Below are positions 47,288 to 60,278 of a stretch of 63,699 nucleotides of DNA, piece after piece (position 1 is the stretch's first letter; each line of letters starts with the position of its first letter). Position numbers and translations under genes: made by a program. Source of the stretch: Aquificaceae bacterium (GTDB lineage: Bacteria; Aquificota; Aquificia; Aquificales; Aquificaceae); assembly GCA_037925365.1 (NCBI GenBank), contig JAXSNY010000001.1:1-63699 (forward strand), read 5' to 3'. The notes beneath the pieces were generated by a model that saw only the letters and a program-made list of their open reading frames with translations, was not told where the DNA came from and made no database searches.

Positions 47288-47935
47288 CTACGTCCCTCCT
47301 GCATATATTAGTCTTGAAGGAGAAACAAGCTCTCCATTTTCAAGCTCAAAAAGCAGTTCCCCACCAGAAACACTAACAGACTTTATCTTACCCATAACAC
47401 CAAGATTTAGACCATCAACGGGCATACCGTTCTTAAGTATCTGCACGCTGAACTGCCCCTTTGGCAGGTCCCTAAGTTCAATAGGATTAAGCCCCTTGTT
47501 TATATCTAATTGAAGCTCCTTTATCACATCATCTCCATCCATTATCCTAAGGGTAGCATCCTTTATATCCTCTGAAGACAGAAGGTAGTATTGCCCACCC
47601 TTTAGTGTATCTATTTTGTCAGTGGAGAACACAAACTCCTTACCTATCAAACTCAGGCTTGAGAGAAGGGTGATTTGATTAAACCAACCCTTGAGACCTT
47701 CCATAAAGCTTTTCATATCGTTCATATACCTGATCTGATTTAGCCTTGTCATGTCCTCTAACATCTTTGAGAGGTCTTGAGGCTGGAAAGGGTCTTGATA
47801 CTTTAGGGTCTCCATGTATATTTTTAGGAAGTCTTCAGAAGAGAGACTGTCTACGCCTTGAGTGTAGTTTTTGGGTAGAACTTTCGGCTCAGGGGGTTTT
47901 ATATCGTAGGGGTTTGTAGCCTTAAGCTGCGCCAT
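47288..47935 (-). CDS. flgD: Flagellar hook capping protein FlgD
   Basis: DFLK....LKYQDP..P, SLIGK; upstream of flgE. Confidence 0.88.
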   Translation of the reverse strand: MAQLKATNPYDIKPPEPKVLPKNYTQGVDSLSSEDFLKIYMETLKYQDPFQPQDLSKMLEDMTRLNQIRYMNDMKSFMEGLKGWFNQITLLSSLSLIGKEFVFSTDKIDTLKGGQYYLLSSEDIKDATLRIMDGDDVIKELQLDINKGLNPIELRDLPKGQFSVQILKNGMPVDGLNLGVMGKIKSVSVSGGELLFELENGELVSPSRLIYAGGT

Positions 47936-48179
47936 CCTTCTTCCCTCCCTTCTGTTTTTGGAACTCTTCCGCTAATATCTGGGCGAAGCTCTTCTGTTGG
48001 GTTTGCCCTGATGGGATGCTACCCTTTAGGTCATAAACCCTCTGCTCCTTTTTTATTATGAGCTGGTCATCTTTTACCTCAATCCTGACCAAGTCTCCCT
48101 CCTTTAGCCCGAGCCTTTTTCTAACATCACTGGGCAAAGCTACCAGCCCTCTTGCCATTATCTTGGCTACCTCATCCAT
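47922..48179 (-). CDS. AbrB/MazE/SpoVT family DNA-binding protein
   Basis: K...RG.V.LP..VR..LGLKEGD.V. Confidence 0.85.
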   Translation of the reverse strand: MDEVAKIMARGLVALPSDVRKRLGLKEGDLVRIEVKDDQLIIKKEQRVYDLKGSIPSGQTQQKSFAQILAEEFQKQKGGKKDGAA

Positions 48180-48308: not shown

Positions 48309-49886
48309 ATGAGCCTCGAGCCCACAAAAATACCTCTCACGGTGAAGGAGTTTGACAGCCAAAAAGTAGGCTTTTGTGCAGGTTGTGGCTGTGCCTGCGG
48401 ATATATCCTTTACCAAAAGGAAGGTAAGATAGTAGACTTATACGGGCACCCTGCAGATCCAAGGGGGATGGGAAGTCTATGCACCAAAGGCATAGCCTAT
48501 ATACAGGAAGCGACAACCAATCCTATGAGACTAAAAGGTATTTTTATGAGGAAGGGAGATGAGTTTATTTCTGTTGATTACGCTCAAGCTCTTGAAATCC
48601 TGAAGGGAAAACTATCAAAGGGCAAGACTGCCTTTTTGCTTGGTAGACAGACAGGACTTGAGGATTATCTCCTTGCCAGAAGCCTTTCAGAGGATGTTTT
48701 TGTTGATGCTCCTATTGTAGACTTTATGCCTTCAAGTCTTAAGCCCACTGATTGGAAAAGGGCAAAGTTCATACTCTCCGTTGACGCGGAGCCAGTTTTT
48801 TCTGAGGTTATGGCAACGCGGTGGGTGGTAGATGCCATAGAAGCGGGTGCATACCTCTTTTGTCTCTCCAGCAGGTACGAAACCACCTGTGCCAAGGCAA
48901 AGGATAGATTGCTCTTAAAGCCAGATTCTATTATAGAGTTTTTGCAGGCTATTCTTGAGCCTGAAAAGGGTGATAGCAAGGTAGAGTTTGTTAAAAGGAG
49001 TCTGTTTCTTATGAGAGGTGCCCTTGTCCTTGTGGGAGCACATCTTTTGAATTCTCCCTTTAGAGAAGCTATACTTTCTATTCTTGCTGGGCTTAGAAAG
49101 AAGTTTGGTGTTAACTACAGCTTCGTGGGAGACCTTATGCCTTTCCCTGCCAAGCCTATGGAGGAGTTTTTTGAAAGGTTTGAGGAGTTTGATAACCTTG
49201 TGGTGGTAGGAAACCACTTTAGATATCTAAGTGAAGACCATCTAAAAGCCCTTAAGGATAAGTTTGTGGTTAGCTTTCAGGTTTTCCCAAACATTACAGC
49301 CCATTATTCGGACATGCTTTTTGCCTTGAGCATGTATCAAGAGCGAGACTTTATAAACTACAGACATGGCTTTGGCTATCTTGTATATTCACCAAAGACG
49401 GTAGATGCGCAAGATGTTTATAGTCCTGCGGACGTGCTTGGAAAAGCTCTTGGGCTAAGGGTAAGCCTAAAAGACTTTGAATACTATGAACATTTAGAAA
49501 CAAAGGGTGAGGTAGAGCTTAGGATGGAAGACATTGGTTCGAAGGGGTTTTCAGGTGATTACTACACACGAAAGGGCGAGCTTTTCCTTTACACAGACAG
49601 CACTCTTGTGGAGGACTTGGGACATTGGAACCCTTGGACCCATGAGATGGAAAGGTTTCAAAGGGCTTATATAAACCCGCACACTGCAAGAAGGATCGGC
49701 CTAAAGGATAGCATACAGATAGGAGGTATAATTTTTGACTTAATCACCACAGAAAATATAGCAGAGGGCGTTATCTTTATACCCTCAGAGTATGAAGAAT
49801 TTCAACCCTTTGACCCAGGGCGTAGAGTTGGAGCTTTCCTAAAAAATCCCTATCACAGGTATGAGGTCTTGGCGACTAGTCTTTGA
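48309..49886 (+). CDS. Molybdopterin oxidoreductase family protein (short/divergent) with an N-terminal 4Fe-4S motif
   Basis: CAGCGCAC (CxxCxxxC)...G.LCTKG; C-terminal YINP.TA..IG dinucleotide-binding-like segment. Confidence 0.7.
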   Translation: MSLEPTKIPLTVKEFDSQKVGFCAGCGCACGYILYQKEGKIVDLYGHPADPRGMGSLCTKGIAYIQEATTNPMRLKGIFMRKGDEFISVDYAQALEILKGKLSKGKTAFLLGRQTGLEDYLLARSLSEDVFVDAPIVDFMPSSLKPTDWKRAKFILSVDAEPVFSEVMATRWVVDAIEAGAYLFCLSSRYETTCAKAKDRLLLKPDSIIEFLQAILEPEKGDSKVEFVKRSLFLMRGALVLVGAHLLNSPFREAILSILAGLRKKFGVNYSFVGDLMPFPAKPMEEFFERFEEFDNLVVVGNHFRYLSEDHLKALKDKFVVSFQVFPNITAHYSDMLFALSMYQERDFINYRHGFGYLVYSPKTVDAQDVYSPADVLGKALGLRVSLKDFEYYEHLETKGEVELRMEDIGSKGFSGDYYTRKGELFLYTDSTLVEDLGHWNPWTHEMERFQRAYINPHTARRIGLKDSIQIGGIIFDLITTENIAEGVIFIPSEYEEFQPFDPGRRVGAFLKNPYHRYEVLATSL

Positions 49887-49891
49887 AAATG

Positions 49892-49920
49892 TTGACAAAC
49901 GAAGACAAATGTTGTATATT
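49892..49920 (+). promoter_or_regulatory. Sigma70 promoter
   Basis: TTGACA-17-TATATT; direct repeat AAATGTTG at 49887 and 49907. Confidence 0.75.
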
Positions 49921-49926
49921 ATTCCT

Positions 49927-50150
49927 TAGTTTTTAAAGCGGGGTGCGGAACGTGAATACCGACAAAGGCTCGCCTAACCGTGTTAGGTGAGGTTGGTGTT
50001 TACACTGCACTCTGCAAGCCCTTATCAAGTGGGTATAAAAAGCCTGCTTGATGAGCGGTATTAGTGCCTTTGGAGTAAGGCTACTTTCGTTGGTGAGCCC
50101 CTAAACCCGATGTGTGGATAAATATCCCTAAAAGGGATATTTGTCTATAC
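49927..50150 (+). ncRNA. Putative structured non-coding RNA or long 5' leader of unknown class
   Basis: Four hand-folded hairpins (33 bp, 13 bp, 8 bp, 18 bp) with many G-U pairs that only work on the + strand; follows a promoter; no credible ORF. Confidence 0.6.
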
Positions 50151-50165
50151 TAAGGGATACTCTTT

Positions 50166-50681
50166 ATGGAAAGGTATGGAAACTTTGTCTACGCAATTGG
50201 AAGGAAGAGTATGGAGGAGATTGTAGGAGTCCTTTTAAGAGAAAAAGGCTTAAAGCTAGCCATTGCAGAAAGTTGTACAGGTGGTCTACTTTCTGCAAGG
50301 ATCGTAAATGTTCCAGGTTCTTCTCACTACTTCGTGGGTGGCTTTGTGGTCTATGCCAACGAGATCAAGACAAAACTGCTCGGGGTTGAAGAAAGCTCTA
50401 TAAGAAGACACGGTGCGGTTTCTGAAGAGGTTTGCAGACAGATGGCGGTGGGTGCTCTTGAGAAAACGGATGCGGACATAGCACTTGCCATAACGGGTAT
50501 ATCCGGACCAGAGGGAGGGACAGACCAAAAACCTGTGGGGCTTACCTACATAGCCCTCGCAACAGACAGGGAAGTGGTTGTTAGAAGGTTTCTCTTTGAG
50601 GGTAGCAGGAATGAGAACCGTTTCATAGCTACCCAGTGGGCTCTTGAAATACTTAGGCAATACCTTATAAGGGGGGTCTAA
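50166..50681 (+). CDS. CinA C-terminal domain / NMN amidohydrolase (PncC); start could be 50211
   Basis: AESCTGG, PGSS.YF, Y.NE.K..LLGV, HGAVS, ITGISGP.GG..KPVG. Confidence 0.9.
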   Translation: MERYGNFVYAIGRKSMEEIVGVLLREKGLKLAIAESCTGGLLSARIVNVPGSSHYFVGGFVVYANEIKTKLLGVEESSIRRHGAVSEEVCRQMAVGALEKTDADIALAITGISGPEGGTDQKPVGLTYIALATDREVVVRRFLFEGSRNENRFIATQWALEILRQYLIRGV

Positions 50682-50682
50682 A

Positions 50683-51474
50683 ATGCCAAAGGTTCACCCA
50701 ACAGCCATAATAAGGGGGGAGGTAGAGCTGGGAGAGGAAGTGGAGGTCGGTCCCTACACCATCATAGAAGGCAAGGTGGTAGTTGGAGAAGGAACAAAAA
50801 TAGGTGCAAGGGTCTCAATAAAAGGAAAGGTCTCCATAGGTTCAAACTGTAGGATTCATGACGGAGCTATCGTGGGAGAGGAGCCACAACACCTAAAATA
50901 TGCAGGAGAAGAAAGCGAGGTGATAGTGGGCAATAATGTAATAATAAGAGAATACGTCACCATTCATAGGGGAACAGCCATAGACAAGATGAAAACAGTT
51001 ATAGAGGATGATGTGATGCTTATGGCTTATTCCCATGTGGCACATGACTGCATAGTCCGAAGGGGAGTTATCATGGCAAACTGTGCTACCCTTGGAGGAC
51101 ATGTAGAGGTGGGAGAGTATGCCTTTATAGGCGGGCTTTCCGCAGTCCACCAATGGGCGAGGGTTGGAGCTTACGCCATGGTGGGGGGTCTATCTGGAGT
51201 ATCCCTTGATGTACCGCCCTACGTGAGGGCATCAGGACAACATGCACATCTATACGGCATAAATACGATTGGACTTGAGAGGAGAAGCTTTTCCAAGGAA
51301 GCAATAGCCATTCTCAAAAGGGCATACAGAATTCTCTTTAGAAGTGGTATGTTGAAGGAGGATGCTATAGCCTTACTTCTTAGTGAATACGGAGGCCACA
51401 AAGAGGTAAGAAACTTAGTGGAGTTCATAAGGACTTCAAAAAGAGGTGTCGCAAGAGACGAAGGGAGGAGTTAA
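50683..51474 (+). CDS. lpxA: UDP-N-acetylglucosamine O-acyltransferase
   Basis: Hexapeptide repeats, PQHLKY, IREYVTIHRGT, HVAHDC, VHQ. Confidence 0.96.
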   Translation: MPKVHPTAIIRGEVELGEEVEVGPYTIIEGKVVVGEGTKIGARVSIKGKVSIGSNCRIHDGAIVGEEPQHLKYAGEESEVIVGNNVIIREYVTIHRGTAIDKMKTVIEDDVMLMAYSHVAHDCIVRRGVIMANCATLGGHVEVGEYAFIGGLSAVHQWARVGAYAMVGGLSGVSLDVPPYVRASGQHAHLYGINTIGLERRSFSKEAIAILKRAYRILFRSGMLKEDAIALLLSEYGGHKEVRNLVEFIRTSKRGVARDEGRS

Positions 51475-51483
51475 AATATTTGC

Positions 51484-52869
51484 ATGCGAGCCCTTGTTCT
51501 TTCCGCAGGTCTTGGAACGCGCTTTAAAAGCGAAAAGCCAAAGGTTATGCATAACATACTTGGTAAACCCATGCTCTGGTATGTTCTAAAAACTCTGAAG
51601 GAATTGCATATAGAAAATATTGCCCTTGTGGTAGGGTATAAGGCGGAGCAGATAAGGGAATACTTTGGATATTCTTACCATTACTTTTACCAGTCAAACC
51701 CAAAGGGTGGAACCGGTGATGCGGTGCTTTCTGCTGTTGATTTTTGGAGAGATTACCATGGTTATATGTTGGTAATAAACGGAGATTCTCCCTTAGTCAA
51801 GTCACAAACCCTCAAAAACATGCAGAGATATTTGCATATGGTGGAAGAATACGAGGGCATCAAGTTAAGTGCCCTTTTACTCTCCACACAATTACCAGAC
51901 CCAACGGGTTATGGAAGGATAATAAAGGACGAAAGGGGAAATGTGATAAAGGTGGTGGAGGAAAAGGATGCGAGCTTTGAAGAAAAGCTAATAAAGGAAA
52001 TAAATGGAGGGGTTTACATTTTCTATTGTCCTCATCTCATAGAAACCCTTTTCAAGGTAAGCCCAAGTCCTAAAACCGGTGAAGTGTATCTCACAGAGGT
52101 TTTCAATCTCATGCACCAAAAAGGTTACACAGTAAGGAGCTTTATGGCGGAAGACCCTACGGAAGTCCTTGGAGCTAACACGAGGTGGGAGCTTGCCATA
52201 GCGGAGAATGTGATAAGGCTTAGGATACTTCAGGAGTGGGCGGAGAAGGGCAACACCATACATCAACCAGAAAGTGTGTGGATAGAACCAGACGTGGTTT
52301 TAGAAGGCGATGTGGAGATATATCCAGATGTTATGTTAAGGGGCAACACAAGGCTCGGCAGGGGTGTGCTGGTAGGGAAAGGTAGCCTCTTGGAAAACTC
52401 CGTGGTGGAAGAGGGAGCAGTGATAGAGGCATATTCCATAGTAAGAAATTCACACATAAAGTCTGGGGCTGTTATAGGACCCTTTGCCCATGTTAGAGAA
52501 AACAGCCTAATAGGGAAAGGTAGCCATATAGGAAACTTTGTGGAAGTAAAAAAGTCCTTTATAGGAGAAGGAGTAAGAGCAAAGCACCTTGCCTATATAG
52601 GAGACGCAACTATTGAGGATGATGTGAATGTAGGTGCTGGTGTGGTTTTTGCAAATTTTGACGGAAAAAGAAAGCATCAGAGCTATGTGGGAAGGGGTGC
52701 CTTTATAGGTAGCAACTCCTTGATAATCGCTCCAATAAGGCTTGGAAACTATTCTTTTGTGGCAGGTGGTTCTGTGGTAAACAAAGATGTGCCCGACGGT
52801 GACCTTGCCATTGAAAGGTCTCAACTTAGAATTTTAAAAGGTAAAGGAAAGGAAAAATTACTTGAATAG
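51484..52869 (+). CDS. glmU: Bifunctional GlmU
   Basis: L.AGLGTRFKS..PKV, GTGDA, PTGYGRI, GNFVEVK, HLAYIGDA. Confidence 0.96.
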   Translation: MRALVLSAGLGTRFKSEKPKVMHNILGKPMLWYVLKTLKELHIENIALVVGYKAEQIREYFGYSYHYFYQSNPKGGTGDAVLSAVDFWRDYHGYMLVINGDSPLVKSQTLKNMQRYLHMVEEYEGIKLSALLLSTQLPDPTGYGRIIKDERGNVIKVVEEKDASFEEKLIKEINGGVYIFYCPHLIETLFKVSPSPKTGEVYLTEVFNLMHQKGYTVRSFMAEDPTEVLGANTRWELAIAENVIRLRILQEWAEKGNTIHQPESVWIEPDVVLEGDVEIYPDVMLRGNTRLGRGVLVGKGSLLENSVVEEGAVIEAYSIVRNSHIKSGAVIGPFAHVRENSLIGKGSHIGNFVEVKKSFIGEGVRAKHLAYIGDATIEDDVNVGAGVVFANFDGKRKHQSYVGRGAFIGSNSLIIAPIRLGNYSFVAGGSVVNKDVPDGDLAIERSQLRILKGKGKEKLLE

Positions 52870-57288: not shown

Positions 57289-59085
57289 ATGCTAAAAAGA
57301 ACCAGATACTGCGGACACATTAGCGAACAAGACCTCGGAAAGGAGGTTATCCTAAACGGCTGGGTTCATCGCATAAGAAACCATGGAGGAGTAATCTTTA
57401 TAGACCTAAGAGACAGAGAGGGTCTAATCCAGTGTGTGGTGGAAGAAAAAACAAACCCTGAGGTGTATGAGCTTGCGGACAGGCTCAGGTCAGAATATGT
57501 GGTTTCCCTGCGTGGTACTGTTAGGAAAAGACCGCCTGGCACAGAAAACCCAAAGCTAAAGACGGGAAACTACGAAGTGGTAATTGAAGAGCTTGAAATT
57601 CTCAACACTTCAGAAGCTTTGCCTTTCCCTATTGACGAAGAGACACACCTTTCGGAAGAAACAAAACTCAAATACCGCTACCTTGACCTAAGAAGGGAGA
57701 GCATGAAAGAAAACCTTCTCTTTAGGCATAGAGCCTATCAGGTAATAAGGAAGGTTTTTCTTGAAGAAGGCTTTGTGGAAATAGAGACGCCCTTTCTTAC
57801 CAAGTCCACTCCAGAGGGTGCAAGGGACTTTCTTGTCCCTTCAAGGCTACATCCAGGAAAGTTTTACGCCCTTCCTCAGTCTCCACAGCTCTTTAAGCAA
57901 GTGCTTATGGTTGCAGGCTTTGATAGATATTTCCAGATAGTTAAATGTCTAAGAGACGAAGACCTGCGTGCGGACCGTCAGCCTGAATTTACCCAGATAG
58001 ACTTTGAAATGTCCTTTGTAGAGGAAGAGGATGTTATAGCTTTTAGCGAAAGGCTTATATATAGCCTCTTTAAGGAGCTTCTCGGCGTTGAGCTAAAACT
58101 CCCCTTTGACCGTATTTCCTATGAGTATGCCATGGAAACTTATGGCTCGGACAAGCCTGACCGTAGGTTTGGGCTTGAGCTTGTGGACCTCACACAGGTC
58201 TTTAAAAATACAGAGTTTAAAGTGTTTCGTCAAGCCATAGAATCTGGTGGAGTGGTAAAGGCTATAAACTTCAAAGGTTCAAACCTCTCAAGGAAAGAGA
58301 TAGATGAGCTTACCCAGTTTGTGCAAAGTCTTGGAGCAAAGGGTCTCGCTTGGATAAAGGTAGAAGAAGACAAACTAAACTCACCCATAGTAAAGTTTTT
58401 CTCTGAAGAAGAAACCAGAGAGCTCTTGCAAAGGCTAAGGGCTGAAAGGGGGGATGTGATATTTTTCTCCGCGGACAAAAGGGAAATGGTTTACCGTATT
58501 CTTGGAAATCTTAGACTTCACATAGGCAAGAAATACAACCTTATAGATACGAGTAAATTTGACATATTTTGGGTGGTGGACTTTCCTCTTATGGAATGGG
58601 ATGAAGAAGAGAAAAGGTTTGTCTCTTTGCACCACCCCTTCACATCGCCCAGAGAGGAGGATATTCCGCTTCTTGAAAGGGCTCTACAGGTGCAGGACTT
58701 AGAGGAGAAAAAAAGGCTCGTCCACTCTGTAAGGGCAAGGGCTTACGACCTTGTGATAAATGGATACGAGGTGGGAGGAGGTTCTATTCGTATACATAGG
58801 AAAGACCTTCAGGAACTTGTCTTTAAGCTTTTGGAGATACCAGAGATGGAGGCAAGGGAGAAGTTTGGTTTTCTACTTGACGCATTACGCTTTGGAGCAC
58901 CACCACATGGAGGACTTGCCTTTGGACTGGACAGGCTAATTGCTATAATGAGAGGCTTGGACTCTATAAGGGATGTGATAGCCTTTCCCAAAACCCAGAA
59001 GGGTATATGCCCTCTTACTGGTGCACCAGACTATGTGGAGCCAAAACAGCTCAAGGAGCTTCATATAAGGGTGGTGGAAGGTTAG
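57289..59085 (+). CDS. aspS: Aspartate--tRNA ligase
   Basis: FIDLRD, PEGARDF, LPQSPQ, RDEDLRADRQPEFTQ, HHPF, GAPPHGG. Confidence 0.98.
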   Translation: MLKRTRYCGHISEQDLGKEVILNGWVHRIRNHGGVIFIDLRDREGLIQCVVEEKTNPEVYELADRLRSEYVVSLRGTVRKRPPGTENPKLKTGNYEVVIEELEILNTSEALPFPIDEETHLSEETKLKYRYLDLRRESMKENLLFRHRAYQVIRKVFLEEGFVEIETPFLTKSTPEGARDFLVPSRLHPGKFYALPQSPQLFKQVLMVAGFDRYFQIVKCLRDEDLRADRQPEFTQIDFEMSFVEEEDVIAFSERLIYSLFKELLGVELKLPFDRISYEYAMETYGSDKPDRRFGLELVDLTQVFKNTEFKVFRQAIESGGVVKAINFKGSNLSRKEIDELTQFVQSLGAKGLAWIKVEEDKLNSPIVKFFSEEETRELLQRLRAERGDVIFFSADKREMVYRILGNLRLHIGKKYNLIDTSKFDIFWVVDFPLMEWDEEEKRFVSLHHPFTSPREEDIPLLERALQVQDLEEKKRLVHSVRARAYDLVINGYEVGGGSIRIHRKDLQELVFKLLEIPEMEAREKFGFLLDALRFGAPPHGGLAFGLDRLIAIMRGLDSIRDVIAFPKTQKGICPLTGAPDYVEPKQLKELHIRVVEG

Positions 59086-59090
59086 AGAAA

Positions 59091-60278
59091 ATGGTTTTCC
59101 TAAGCTTGGTGGGAGTAGAAAAAAGTGAAGTTAAAAAGCATTTTGTTAGACATGGTTTTATCTTTGCTTGCACTGACAAGAGCGAGGAAACACTATTGTC
59201 TAATAGGATAATCTTGACTGGAAAAAACTACGCAAATAAGTTATTCGCAGTTAAAGAAGGCGACTTTATTTTTCTGTATAATCTTGACAGAGATGTCCTT
59301 TATGGCACTTTTACTGCAAAAGGCGAACCTGGATATGATAAAGGTATTCCAATCTTTGAAGGTAGATACCCTTACTATATACGCTTTGAAACAACACAAA
59401 CCATAAAAAAAGTTGAAAAGGCAAGTTCAATCTTTAGAAGTCTTAACATCTCGTGGAGAGATATACTGACAGAGAAGGGGGCACTTCTGATAAAGAATAT
59501 CCTTGAGGGAAGAGCAATAAATAAGCTTCGCAAGGAAGAAATAATAGATGACAAATACATACCCCCAATGATGACAACTACCTTGTGGGACTATCCATAC
59601 CAAAGTTACGGATATACCAAAAAGGGTAATAATAAATACCCTGGCGTTACTCCAGCCTTCATTATTTATAACCTCATATGGAGATACACTGAACCTGGTG
59701 AGATAGTATGCGACCCTATGGCAGGCTCTGGGACTACGGTAGATGTGTGCCTTGAAGAGAGGAGAAGGGTTGTAGCCTTTGATATAGTGCCAACGAGAAA
59801 AGATATAATACAGGCGGATGCCAGAAACATACCTCTGAAGGATGAAACGGTGGATTTAGTGTTTGTAGACTCGCCATACGGAGACAACATCAAATATAAC
59901 GACCATCCCTTAAATATAGGTCATATACCTGCAAGTTCTGAAGAGTTTTACGAGGAGCTTGAAAAGGTAATGCAGGAATGTCATAGAATACTCAAAAAAG
60001 GCAAAGTATTGGCTTGGTTAATAGGTGACCAATGGGCAAAGGGGGAATATATTCCAGTGGGCTTTAAGATATACGAAAGACTTACAAAATATTTTTCCCC
60101 TGTTGACGTAATTTCTGTTGTCCGCAGAAATCAAGCCTCAAATACCCCCTTTTGGCATAGCAAGGCTTTACAGCATAACTTCTATCTAAGGGGTTTTAAA
60201 TACCTTATAATAGTTAAAAAGGAAGAAAATTTTAAAAGAAAAGAGGTGAAGATAAGGTGGAATTTCTATGAAAGATAG
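59091..60278 (+). CDS. DNA amino-methyltransferase (probably N4-cytosine) with an N-terminal DCD-like domain
   Basis: Motif I DPMAGSGTT, motif IV DSPY; N-terminal GFIFAC...FLYN....LYG.F.A...RYP..IRF. Confidence 0.85.
   Translation: MVFLSLVGVEKSEVKKHFVRHGFIFACTDKSEETLLSNRIILTGKNYANKLFAVKEGDFIFLYNLDRDVLYGTFTAKGEPGYDKGIPIFEGRYPYYIRFETTQTIKKVEKASSIFRSLNISWRDILTEKGALLIKNILEGRAINKLRKEEIIDDKYIPPMMTTTLWDYPYQSYGYTKKGNNKYPGVTPAFIIYNLIWRYTEPGEIVCDPMAGSGTTVDVCLEERRRVVAFDIVPTRKDIIQADARNIPLKDETVDLVFVDSPYGDNIKYNDHPLNIGHIPASSEEFYEELEKVMQECHRILKKGKVLAWLIGDQWAKGEYIPVGFKIYERLTKYFSPVDVISVVRRNQASNTPFWHSKALQHNFYLRGFKYLIIVKKEENFKRKEVKIRWNFYER

What the first reader, a model, noticed from the sequence alone, without database searches (positions are those of the whole stretch)
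49887..50165. Unrecognised, highly structured ~220-nt RNA with its own promoter upstream of NMN deamidase (cinA/pncC)
Seen in sequence: this is the longest gene-free gap in the housekeeping part of the window, and it starts with TTGACA-17-TATATT. Hand folding gives P1, a 33-bp interrupted rod (49938-49948/50005-50015, 49952-49963/49992-50003, 49969-49978/49982-49991) with 7 G-U pairs. P2 is 50021-50033/50043-50055 (13 bp, 3 G-U), P3 is 50063-50070/50077-50085, and P4 is 50112-50129/50133-50150 (18 bp, 3 G-U). The mismatches are G-U on the plus strand, which points to selection on an RNA rather than a DNA palindrome. I could not match it to tRNA, tmRNA, 6S, SRP, RNase P or common riboswitches. 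Inference: a new ncRNA class, a cis-regulatory leader, or the orphan guide/bridge-type RNA of a lost mobile element. This is my best candidate for an undescribed system in the window.
Basis: partly seen in the sequence, partly recalled or inferred. Interest (0 to 1): 0.8.

Follow-up and report, generated by a model that had tools for sequence, protein, structure and literature searches.

The report
Gene-less IS607 mini-transposon carrying guide RNA
This is a 296-base, gene-less copy of a jumping element that keeps the element's ends, a promoter-like sequence and the folded guide-RNA part of a TnpB nuclease gene, so it likely borrows its moving and cutting enzymes from full-length relatives in the same genome; such elements are already known.

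Summary
The fold and promoter match are real (z −10.95 on +; no Rfam hit), but this is not a cinA leader. It is a mobile element at 49867-50162, with 13 full copies in 6 genomes. It is absent from the orthologous site in 11 of 11 relatives, and other copies insert precisely at GTCY. It shares both ends with a 2,116-bp IS607 element (TnpA serine recombinase plus TnpB) in the same genome. The RNA is the 3' end of tnpB, i.e. the omegaRNA scaffold, fused to the element's own tnpA promoter. P1 is 54% identical to the parent, yet none of its 33 pairs is broken and 11 changed on both sides. Two of four hot-spring/sediment RNA runs show the element strongly. A tree forces at least five separate origins of such minis among relatives. 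Most likely its RNA guides borrowed TnpB to cut empty sites (untested). Standalone omegaRNAs are published, and this scan found IS607 minis before on other DNA. New here: a TC core instead of GG, an RNA family without an Rfam model, and repeated origins.

The parts
49867..50162 (+). Non-autonomous IS607-family mini-element, TC core to TC core (296 bp; net insertion 294 bp)
   Evidence: Boundaries from 13 aligned copies and empty sites of other copies
49866..49869 (+). Left junction GTCT (target motif; TC core at 49867-49868)
   Evidence: GTCT in 42 of 45 left junctions, GTTT in 3; empty sites read GTCY
49867..49897 (+). Left end, shared with the tnpA-tnpB and tnpB-only elements; it supplies the new stop codon (49884-49886) of the upstream gene
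   Evidence: 14 left ends in own genome; alignment
49892..49920 (+). Sigma70-like promoter, in register with the promoter-like site before the parent's tnpA start codon; predicted start of transcription about 49927
   Evidence: the start is inferred, not mapped
49938..50015 (+). P1 rod, homologous to the tnpB codons for the RuvC-III region (KLHADVNASRNLL...)
   Evidence: 54% identity to the parent; 16 same, 11 both-side, 5 one-side, 1 gap, 0 broken of 33 pairs
50018..50059 (+). P2 hairpin, loop shortened by about 10 nt against tnpB
50063..50085 (+). P3 hairpin; its loop bases 50072-50077 can pair with the 3' end (predicted pseudoknot)
   Evidence: 98% of cells paired, no both-side change
50086..50111 (+). 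Linker where the parent's extra hairpin is cut by about 23 nt; two alleles among copies
50112..50150 (+). P4 hairpin within the right end
50158..50163 (+). 3' end of the scaffold and right junction (TC core 50161-50162, then a pyrimidine)
   Evidence: Base after TC is T or C in 51 of 51 right ends
50164..50183 (+). Predicted guide (flanking DNA); its first 17 nt match the element-free allele behind GTCT in G015 and G011
   Evidence: guide role inferred from published TnpB biology
50166..50681 (+). pncC/cinA, lacking the first 50 or so residues found in relatives; CinA domain intact
48309..49886 (+). Upstream molybdopterin-oxidoreductase-like gene whose last codons are replaced by the left end

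Best explanation
The stretch is a protein-less IS607-family mini-transposon made of the left end with its promoter-like site, the structured 3' end of a tnpB gene and the right end; it likely transcribes a complete omegaRNA that would load TnpB made by full-length copies and guide it to cut element-free copies of the insertion site. Shown: mobility, boundaries, GTCY target, shared ends and collinearity with an IS607 tnpA-tnpB element in the same genome, structure kept after loss of coding, and RNA from this element family in two metatranscriptomes. Inferred steps: (1) an internal deletion joined the tnpA promoter to a point just before P1; (2) TnpA from the autonomous copy excises and inserts the mini as a circle through a TC core; (3) transcription from about 49927 runs through the right end into the flank, whose first 16-20 nt become the guide; (4) TnpB in trans cuts GTCY plus guide-matching DNA, which exists only where the element is missing, and repair from an element-bearing copy restores it. 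At this site the element stands in place of 152 bp between two GTCT sites, and its promoter would now also feed pncC-lpxA-glmU.
For: Multicopy: 4 full copies at 94-97% plus 2 partial ones in a genome 55% complete; 13 full copies from 6 genomes. Parent: G000:C9:14301-12186, TnpA NF033518 177 bits (cut-off 110), TnpB NF040570 100.9 bits (cut-off 100), with D247, E331 and D416 in RuvC-type motifs. Empty sites: 5 of 9 filled copies tested have a precise 4-base GTCY site in relatives. Structure: 36 of 63 consensus pairs have both-side changes in 19 sequences; 0 of 500 shuffles reach any measure, and slid controls fall from 91% to 36-45% paired. The tnpB frame is broken by stops in the mini. Only 40 and 60 bp of the ends are needed for excision of a studied IS607 element (10.1101/2023.11.20.567912, passages), so transposition does not explain P1-P3. 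Repeated origin: 13 mini rows need 5 changes on a 31-row tree, and one clade is rejected, p-AU 0.0002. L153 is a young intermediate, with the tnpA start fused just before the KLHADV codons. RNA: X1 contig depth 782 on the element against 0-12 on the flanks; in X4, 13 of 15 reads in 19 kb fall on it, all in one direction. No perfect self-target for 19 of 19 guides. Full-length tnpB lies beside the mini in the complete genomes G015 and G024.
Against: No binding or cleavage was tested. The TnpB passes the family cut-off only narrowly (C9 100.9; C12 96.9, below it) and scores far below the IS607_TnpB model (40 of 350). The pseudoknot shows no both-side change. The mini has lost most of the hairpin between P3 and P4, and the window's allele can fold in competition with P3. 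RNA depth sums all copies and strains, may include DNA, and maps no 5' or 3' end. X2 lacks the body of the mini although neighbouring genes are well covered, and X3 has 2 reads. Strand control is one read pair on glmU. G015 and G024 have no IS607 TnpA over cut-off, and G008 showed only a tnpB fragment with this query. The self-target test covers about half a genome. Related sequences inflate the shuffle control.
Confidence: 0.75

Rival explanations
1. The mini makes an RNA that binds TnpB but works as a decoy or damper: it soaks up TnpB, or binds targets without productive cutting, and so tunes the activity of the full elements.
For: The RNA is abundant in X1 and X4 relative to neighbouring genes; the P3-P4 hairpin is truncated.
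Against: The 3' end, the pseudoknot pairing and the junction with the flank are intact. Other mini lineages keep the P3-P4 hairpin. Homing of its own site gives a direct selfish benefit, which a decoy role lacks (inference).
Confidence: 0.1
2. A passive MITE-like passenger: only the DNA ends matter, and the helices are inherited from tnpB and patched by template-switch repair of near-palindromic DNA.
For: The parent already folds the same way; quasi-palindrome correction can mimic compensatory change (recalled); some copies are decaying (C2, L080, L066).
Against: G-U pairs and the asymmetric internal loop are kept, and the - strand folds far worse. Five lineages keep the whole scaffold behind the promoter, although short ends suffice for excision in a studied IS607.
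Confidence: 0.1
3. A host-adopted regulatory leader or small RNA for pncC-lpxA-glmU.
For: The element's promoter now lies directly before the truncated pncC, and no terminator-like site was found at the right end. 6 of 7 insertions examined lie in ORFs in the sense direction.
Against: Absent from this site in 11 of 11 relatives, two of them 98% identical in the flanks. Found at unrelated sites in other genomes. Read-through here is a side effect.
Confidence: 0.03

Closest known systems
Standalone omegaRNAs of OMEGA systems (as summarised in PMC10691335, passages read; the primary paper was not read)
   Same: Mobilised omegaRNA with no effector or transposase gene, in a genome that holds effector loci; guide taken from the flank; reported to work in trans.
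   Different: Here the parent is a defined IS607 tnpA-tnpB element, the promoter is the tnpA promoter, and at least five separate origins can be traced.
PATE-like non-autonomous IS200/IS605 elements of Geobacillus stearothermophilus (PMC10055086, passages)
   Same: Minimal gene-less IS derivatives that often encode omegaRNAs and need TnpA and TnpB in trans.
   Different: The partner transposase here is a serine recombinase (IS607), not a Y1 HUH enzyme.
sRk48/sRk52 RNAs of Pyrococcus abyssi (PMC3124441, passages)
   Same: Multicopy, promoter-driven, structured RNAs matching the sense 3' end of IS607 orfB (tnpB).
   Different: Archaeal and described without a guide function. No sequence comparison with this RNA was made here.
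IS607-family CboIStron (10.1101/2023.11.20.567912, passages; review PMC13565253, passages)
   Same: Serine-recombinase TnpA plus TnpB, scarless insertion through a core dinucleotide, a pseudoknot predicted in the omegaRNA.
   Different: Core GG and TAM TGGG there; core TC and target (A)RGTCY here. No group I intron here (no Rfam hit).
RAGATH-18 reRNA with IS607 TnpB (PMC11061315, passages)
   Same: IS607-linked TnpB with a structured right-end RNA.
   Different: RF03064 not found in this genome. That RNA does not overlap the ORF, whereas this scaffold overlaps the last 80 or so codons of a 493-aa TnpB; their TAMs are AGGAG or GAGGG.

Membership tests
IS607 family (non-autonomous derivative) | Ends shared with an element encoding an IS607 serine-recombinase TnpA | tested here: met
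   C9 TnpA NF033518 177 bits over cut-off 110, Pfam Resolvase; same left and right ends
IS607 family (non-autonomous derivative) | No terminal inverted repeats; scarless insertion through a core dinucleotide | tested here: met
   Precise GTCY empty sites for 5 of 9 copies tested; unlike left and right ends
IS607 family (non-autonomous derivative) | Core dinucleotide GG (stated for most members; review) | tested here: not met
   Core reads TC (or CT with a tolerated mismatch). Treated as a variant, since family assignment rests on TnpA
IS607 family (non-autonomous derivative) | Circular double-stranded intermediate made by TnpA | not testable with these tools
   No end-to-end joint seen in four RNA runs; needs an excision assay
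TnpB omegaRNA | Scaffold homologous to the 3' end of tnpB and ending at the transposon right end | tested here: met
TnpB omegaRNA | Conserved structure with covariation on the sense strand | tested here: met
TnpB omegaRNA | Pseudoknot to the 3' end of the scaffold | tested here: inconclusive
   98% of cells paired, three one-side changes, no both-side change
TnpB omegaRNA | Variable guide from the flank that matches the empty site behind the target motif | tested here: met
TnpB omegaRNA | Binds TnpB and directs cleavage | not testable with these tools
   Needs biochemistry
Standalone omegaRNA element | No protein gene, mobilised, cognate effector elsewhere in the genome | tested here: met
Standalone omegaRNA element | Transcribed from its own promoter | tested here: inconclusive
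   RNA of the family is seen in X1 and X4, but no start is mapped and the copy of origin is unknown
RAGATH-18 (RF03064) | Match to the Rfam model | tested here: not met
   No match in own genome, though the controls were also silent; no Rfam hit over the locus
PATE (IS200/IS605) | Ends recognised by a Y1 HUH TnpA | tested here: not met
   The TnpA inside the same ends is a serine recombinase
Riboswitch or cis-regulatory leader of pncC | Conserved position upstream of the same gene in relatives | tested here: not met
   Absent in 11 of 11 orthologous loci

The most novel reading that the evidence does not exclude
In these hot-spring bacteria an IS607-TnpB family with a non-GG (TC) core spawns guide-RNA-only parasites again and again. 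At least five separate deletions park the whole omegaRNA behind the tnpA promoter, and selection then rewrites P1 pair by pair once coding is gone. The minis are naturally minimised, highly expressed, thermostable guide cassettes that run TnpB homing in trans. They mark the RNA's true 5' boundary and make the role of standalone omegaRNAs directly testable.
Probability: 0.55. Interest if true: 0.5.

Novelty: new member of a known kind. Interest (0 to 1): 0.35.

Why it matters
PMC10691335 (passage) calls the biological role of standalone omegaRNAs unknown. This family offers natural evidence that such RNAs stay under selection after their gene is lost: compensatory change in a helix that transposition should not need, and five separate origins with the same layout. 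It also supplies a ready test pair from thermophiles: a 493-aa TnpB with predicted TAM (A)RGTCY, and a natural scaffold of about 230 nt already separated from its ORF. It does not define a new kind of system.

Tried and rejected
Rfam at E up to 10 over 48500-51500: only chance hits. Rfam at gathering score over 7 parent and mini loci: none. RAGATH-18 in own genome: none, with silent controls. tRNA/tmRNA: none at the locus. An in-frame fusion of the upstream gene and pncC, or an intron-like element, was considered because the two flanks join in frame; rejected, since relatives have two separate genes and about 150 more bases there. The pseudoknot columns were one base out of register (38.6% paired); the corrected count is, and the whole-structure figures still include the wrong six pairs. 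One search's pair list holds one stray pair that inflates 'broken' in P4. The left-junction count returned nothing (faulty pattern) and was redone. One exact 21-nt pattern in viral contigs: no match, a narrow test. Empty-site searches: no ortholog for the C12 flank; C32 ambiguous; for G008:C14 only the downstream flank matched. Earlier findings by place: nothing. Lechner et al. (PMC4227106): abstract and outline only, so I cannot say whether its candidate list holds this RNA. No supplements of any paper were read; those of PMC10055086 and PMC10691335 may show IS607 minis. Literature searches listed no paper on this family, judged from titles and abstract starts.

Full report
Observation. A TTGACA-17-TATATT match lies at 49892-49920. 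The + strand of 49920-50165 folds at -116.1 kcal/mol with z -10.95, the - strand at -70 with z -3.94. P1 has 33 pairs with 7 G-U at the stated positions, P2 and P3 match, and P4 has 16-18 pairs. Rfam has nothing credible. The downstream gene is a PncC/CinA-domain protein followed by lpxA.

It is a mobile element. A DNA search matched 20 of 61 genomes. The own genome (55% complete) holds 4 full copies at 94-97%, one copy cut by a contig end and one internally deleted copy. Thirteen full copies from 6 genomes align end to end with unrelated flanks. The orthologous site lacks the element in 11 of 11 relatives examined. Of 9 filled copies whose flanks I searched, 5 have a precise empty site in relatives, a single GTCT or GTCC, giving a net insertion of 294 bp. 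One had no ortholog, one was ambiguous, one matched on one side only, and one is the window's own case. GTCC targets yield a left junction GTCT and a right junction ending CTCC, so the simplest reading is a TC core with a pyrimidine after it. That base is T or C in 51 of 51 right ends. Left junctions read GTCT in 42 of 45, with A at -2 in 29 and a purine at -1 in 38. The element is therefore 49867-50162.

Parent. The same ends bound G000:C9:14301-12186 (2,116 bp), which encodes an IS607 TnpA (NF033518, 177 bits, cut-off 110) and a 493-aa TnpB (NF040570, 100.9 bits, cut-off 100). They also bound a 1,600-bp tnpB-only copy on C12. D247, E331 and D416 sit in RuvC-type motifs in 4 of 4 aligned proteins; nuclease activity is inferred. 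The closest solved structures are Cas12f and TnpB proteins. The own genome has 14 left ends and 19 right ends. Of 12 named records with close TnpB relatives, 9 are labelled Aquificaceae MAGs.

Anatomy. The mini's first 62 or so bases align with the parent's left end, with -35 and -10 in register with the site before the tnpA start codon. From 49935 on, the mini is collinear with the last 260 or so bases of the parent, with deletions of about 10 nt in the P2 loop and 23 nt between P3 and P4. P1 corresponds to the codons for the RuvC-III region. The tnpB frame now has stops. So the RNA is the tnpB-overlapping omegaRNA scaffold placed directly under the element's own promoter.

Selection on the RNA. 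Across 19 sequences, 36 of 63 consensus pairs show both-side changes. No shuffle of 500 reaches the observed values, and slid controls fall from 91% to 36-45% paired (related sequences inflate the shuffle test). Against the parent, P1 is 54% identical, yet of 33 pairs 16 are the same, 11 changed on both sides, 5 on one side, 1 is gapped and none is broken. The P3 loop (50072-50077) can pair with the last six bases (50158-50163) in 98% of cells, without both-side change, so the pseudoknot is plausible but unproven. In a studied IS607 element 40 and 60 bp of the ends suffice for excision (passages), so transposition alone does not explain P1-P3.

Repeated origin. A covariance model matched 28 of 141 genomes of the phylum. 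I fetched 20 further hit regions besides the 30 loci returned. Among them are other gene-less scaffolds behind promoter-like sites, most with a recognisable left end: L061, L193 and L188 (G013), L197 (G017), L202 and L203 (G023), L153 (G070) and L157 (G060, another family; no left end found). L153 is young: the tnpA start codon is fused just before the KLHADV codons. On a tree of 31 rows that I chose (13 minis, 18 tnpB ends; truncated and decayed hits left out), the minis need 5 changes, all forced by well-supported branches, and a single clade is rejected (p-AU 0.0002). Since regaining an intact ORF is implausible, I read this as five losses of coding. The window's group is sister to the C9/C12-type tnpB ends (95/93).

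Expression. In X1, contig depth is 782 over the element against 0-12 on the flanks and about 50-200 per bin over the flagellar hook genes. In X4, 13 of 15 reads laid on 19 kb fall on the element, all with the first mate on -, none before the bin 49912-49943. This fits a + strand RNA starting after the promoter. Against: depth sums copies and strains, DNA may be present, no ends were mapped, X3 gave 2 reads, and X2 shows the element-free allele with no mini body.

Mechanism. By analogy with published TnpB homing (passages), TnpA in trans moves the mini. Its RNA runs into the flank to gain a guide, and TnpB in trans cuts the empty site, which repair refills. The guide's first 17 nt match the element-free allele behind GTCT in G015 and G011. 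None of 19 guides has a perfect GTCY-adjacent match in the assembled genome (best: 2 mismatches in 16). The complete genomes G015 and G024 carry a mini and full-length tnpB but no IS607 TnpA over cut-off, so there the mini could be guarded but not moved. Binding and cutting are untested.

This locus. Relatives have two AGGTCTT sites 152 bp apart; here the element stands between the outer flanks. The upstream gene ends in the left end, and pncC has lost about 50 N-terminal residues. Insertion followed by a microhomology or transposase-mediated deletion is inferred. Read-through from the element would keep pncC-lpxA-glmU expressed, a side effect rather than its purpose.

Comparison and verdict. 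It works like a standalone omegaRNA (PMC10691335, passages) or a PATE-like element (PMC10055086, passages). Promoter-driven RNAs matching IS607 orfB 3' ends were already reported in Pyrococcus (PMC3124441, passages; lead from e1-9819923). It is a member of the IS607 family by its TnpA, though its core is not GG. It is not a PATE and not RAGATH-18. Earlier notes of this scan describe the same class on other DNA; they are not evidence. Verdict: new member of a known kind, interest 0.35.

Noticed in passing
window 49866-50163 against L032/L033: 152 bp of host DNA between two AGGTCTT sites is missing at the insertion, removing about 50 N-terminal residues of PncC/CinA that are kept in 11 of 11 relatives.
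   Followed up: partly
L110 (G024:C1:1499977-1500412): One mini is nested in the left end of another, at its internal GTCT, with about 45 bp lost; G008:C14 also has an unrelated upstream flank. Adjacent deletions may be common with this element.
   Followed up: partly
L032, L116, L120, L130, L134, L136, L143: 6 of 7 empty sites examined lie in ORFs in the same direction as the element; the sample is small.
   Followed up: partly
L095:1-1405 and L097:928-2935: TnpB relatives at 89% and 76% identity in MAGs labelled Ca. Aenigmatarchaeota and Thermodesulfobacteriota: horizontal spread among hot-spring microbes, or binning error.
   Followed up: no
G000:C12:410-2009 and G015/G024 copies: 1,600-bp tnpB-only elements with a different sequence between the left end and tnpB than the C9 element: a second, intermediate non-autonomous form.
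   Followed up: partly
L047, L053, G000:C58: Left ends of this family are followed by, or interrupted by, other transposase-like ORFs.
   Followed up: no
L045 / L130: The autonomous element sits about 11 codons before the end of a 393-codon frame that reads like carA (name recalled from sequence, not searched).
   Followed up: no
window 47922-48179 (-): AbrB/MazE-type protein directly before the flagellar hook genes; this stretch is well covered in X2.
   Followed up: no
window 59007-60278 (+): DNA methyltransferase (N6_N4_Mtase) fused to an N-terminal Dev_Cell_Death domain (PF10539, E 1.6e-8).
   Followed up: no
window 48309-49886 (+): 525-aa molybdopterin-oxidoreductase-like protein far below all family cut-offs, in an operon with pncC, lpxA and glmU.
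   Followed up: no
L080:~1495-1627, L066: Short decayed remnant joining half of P1 to P3 and the right end, at the same site in G008 and G011.
   Followed up: no
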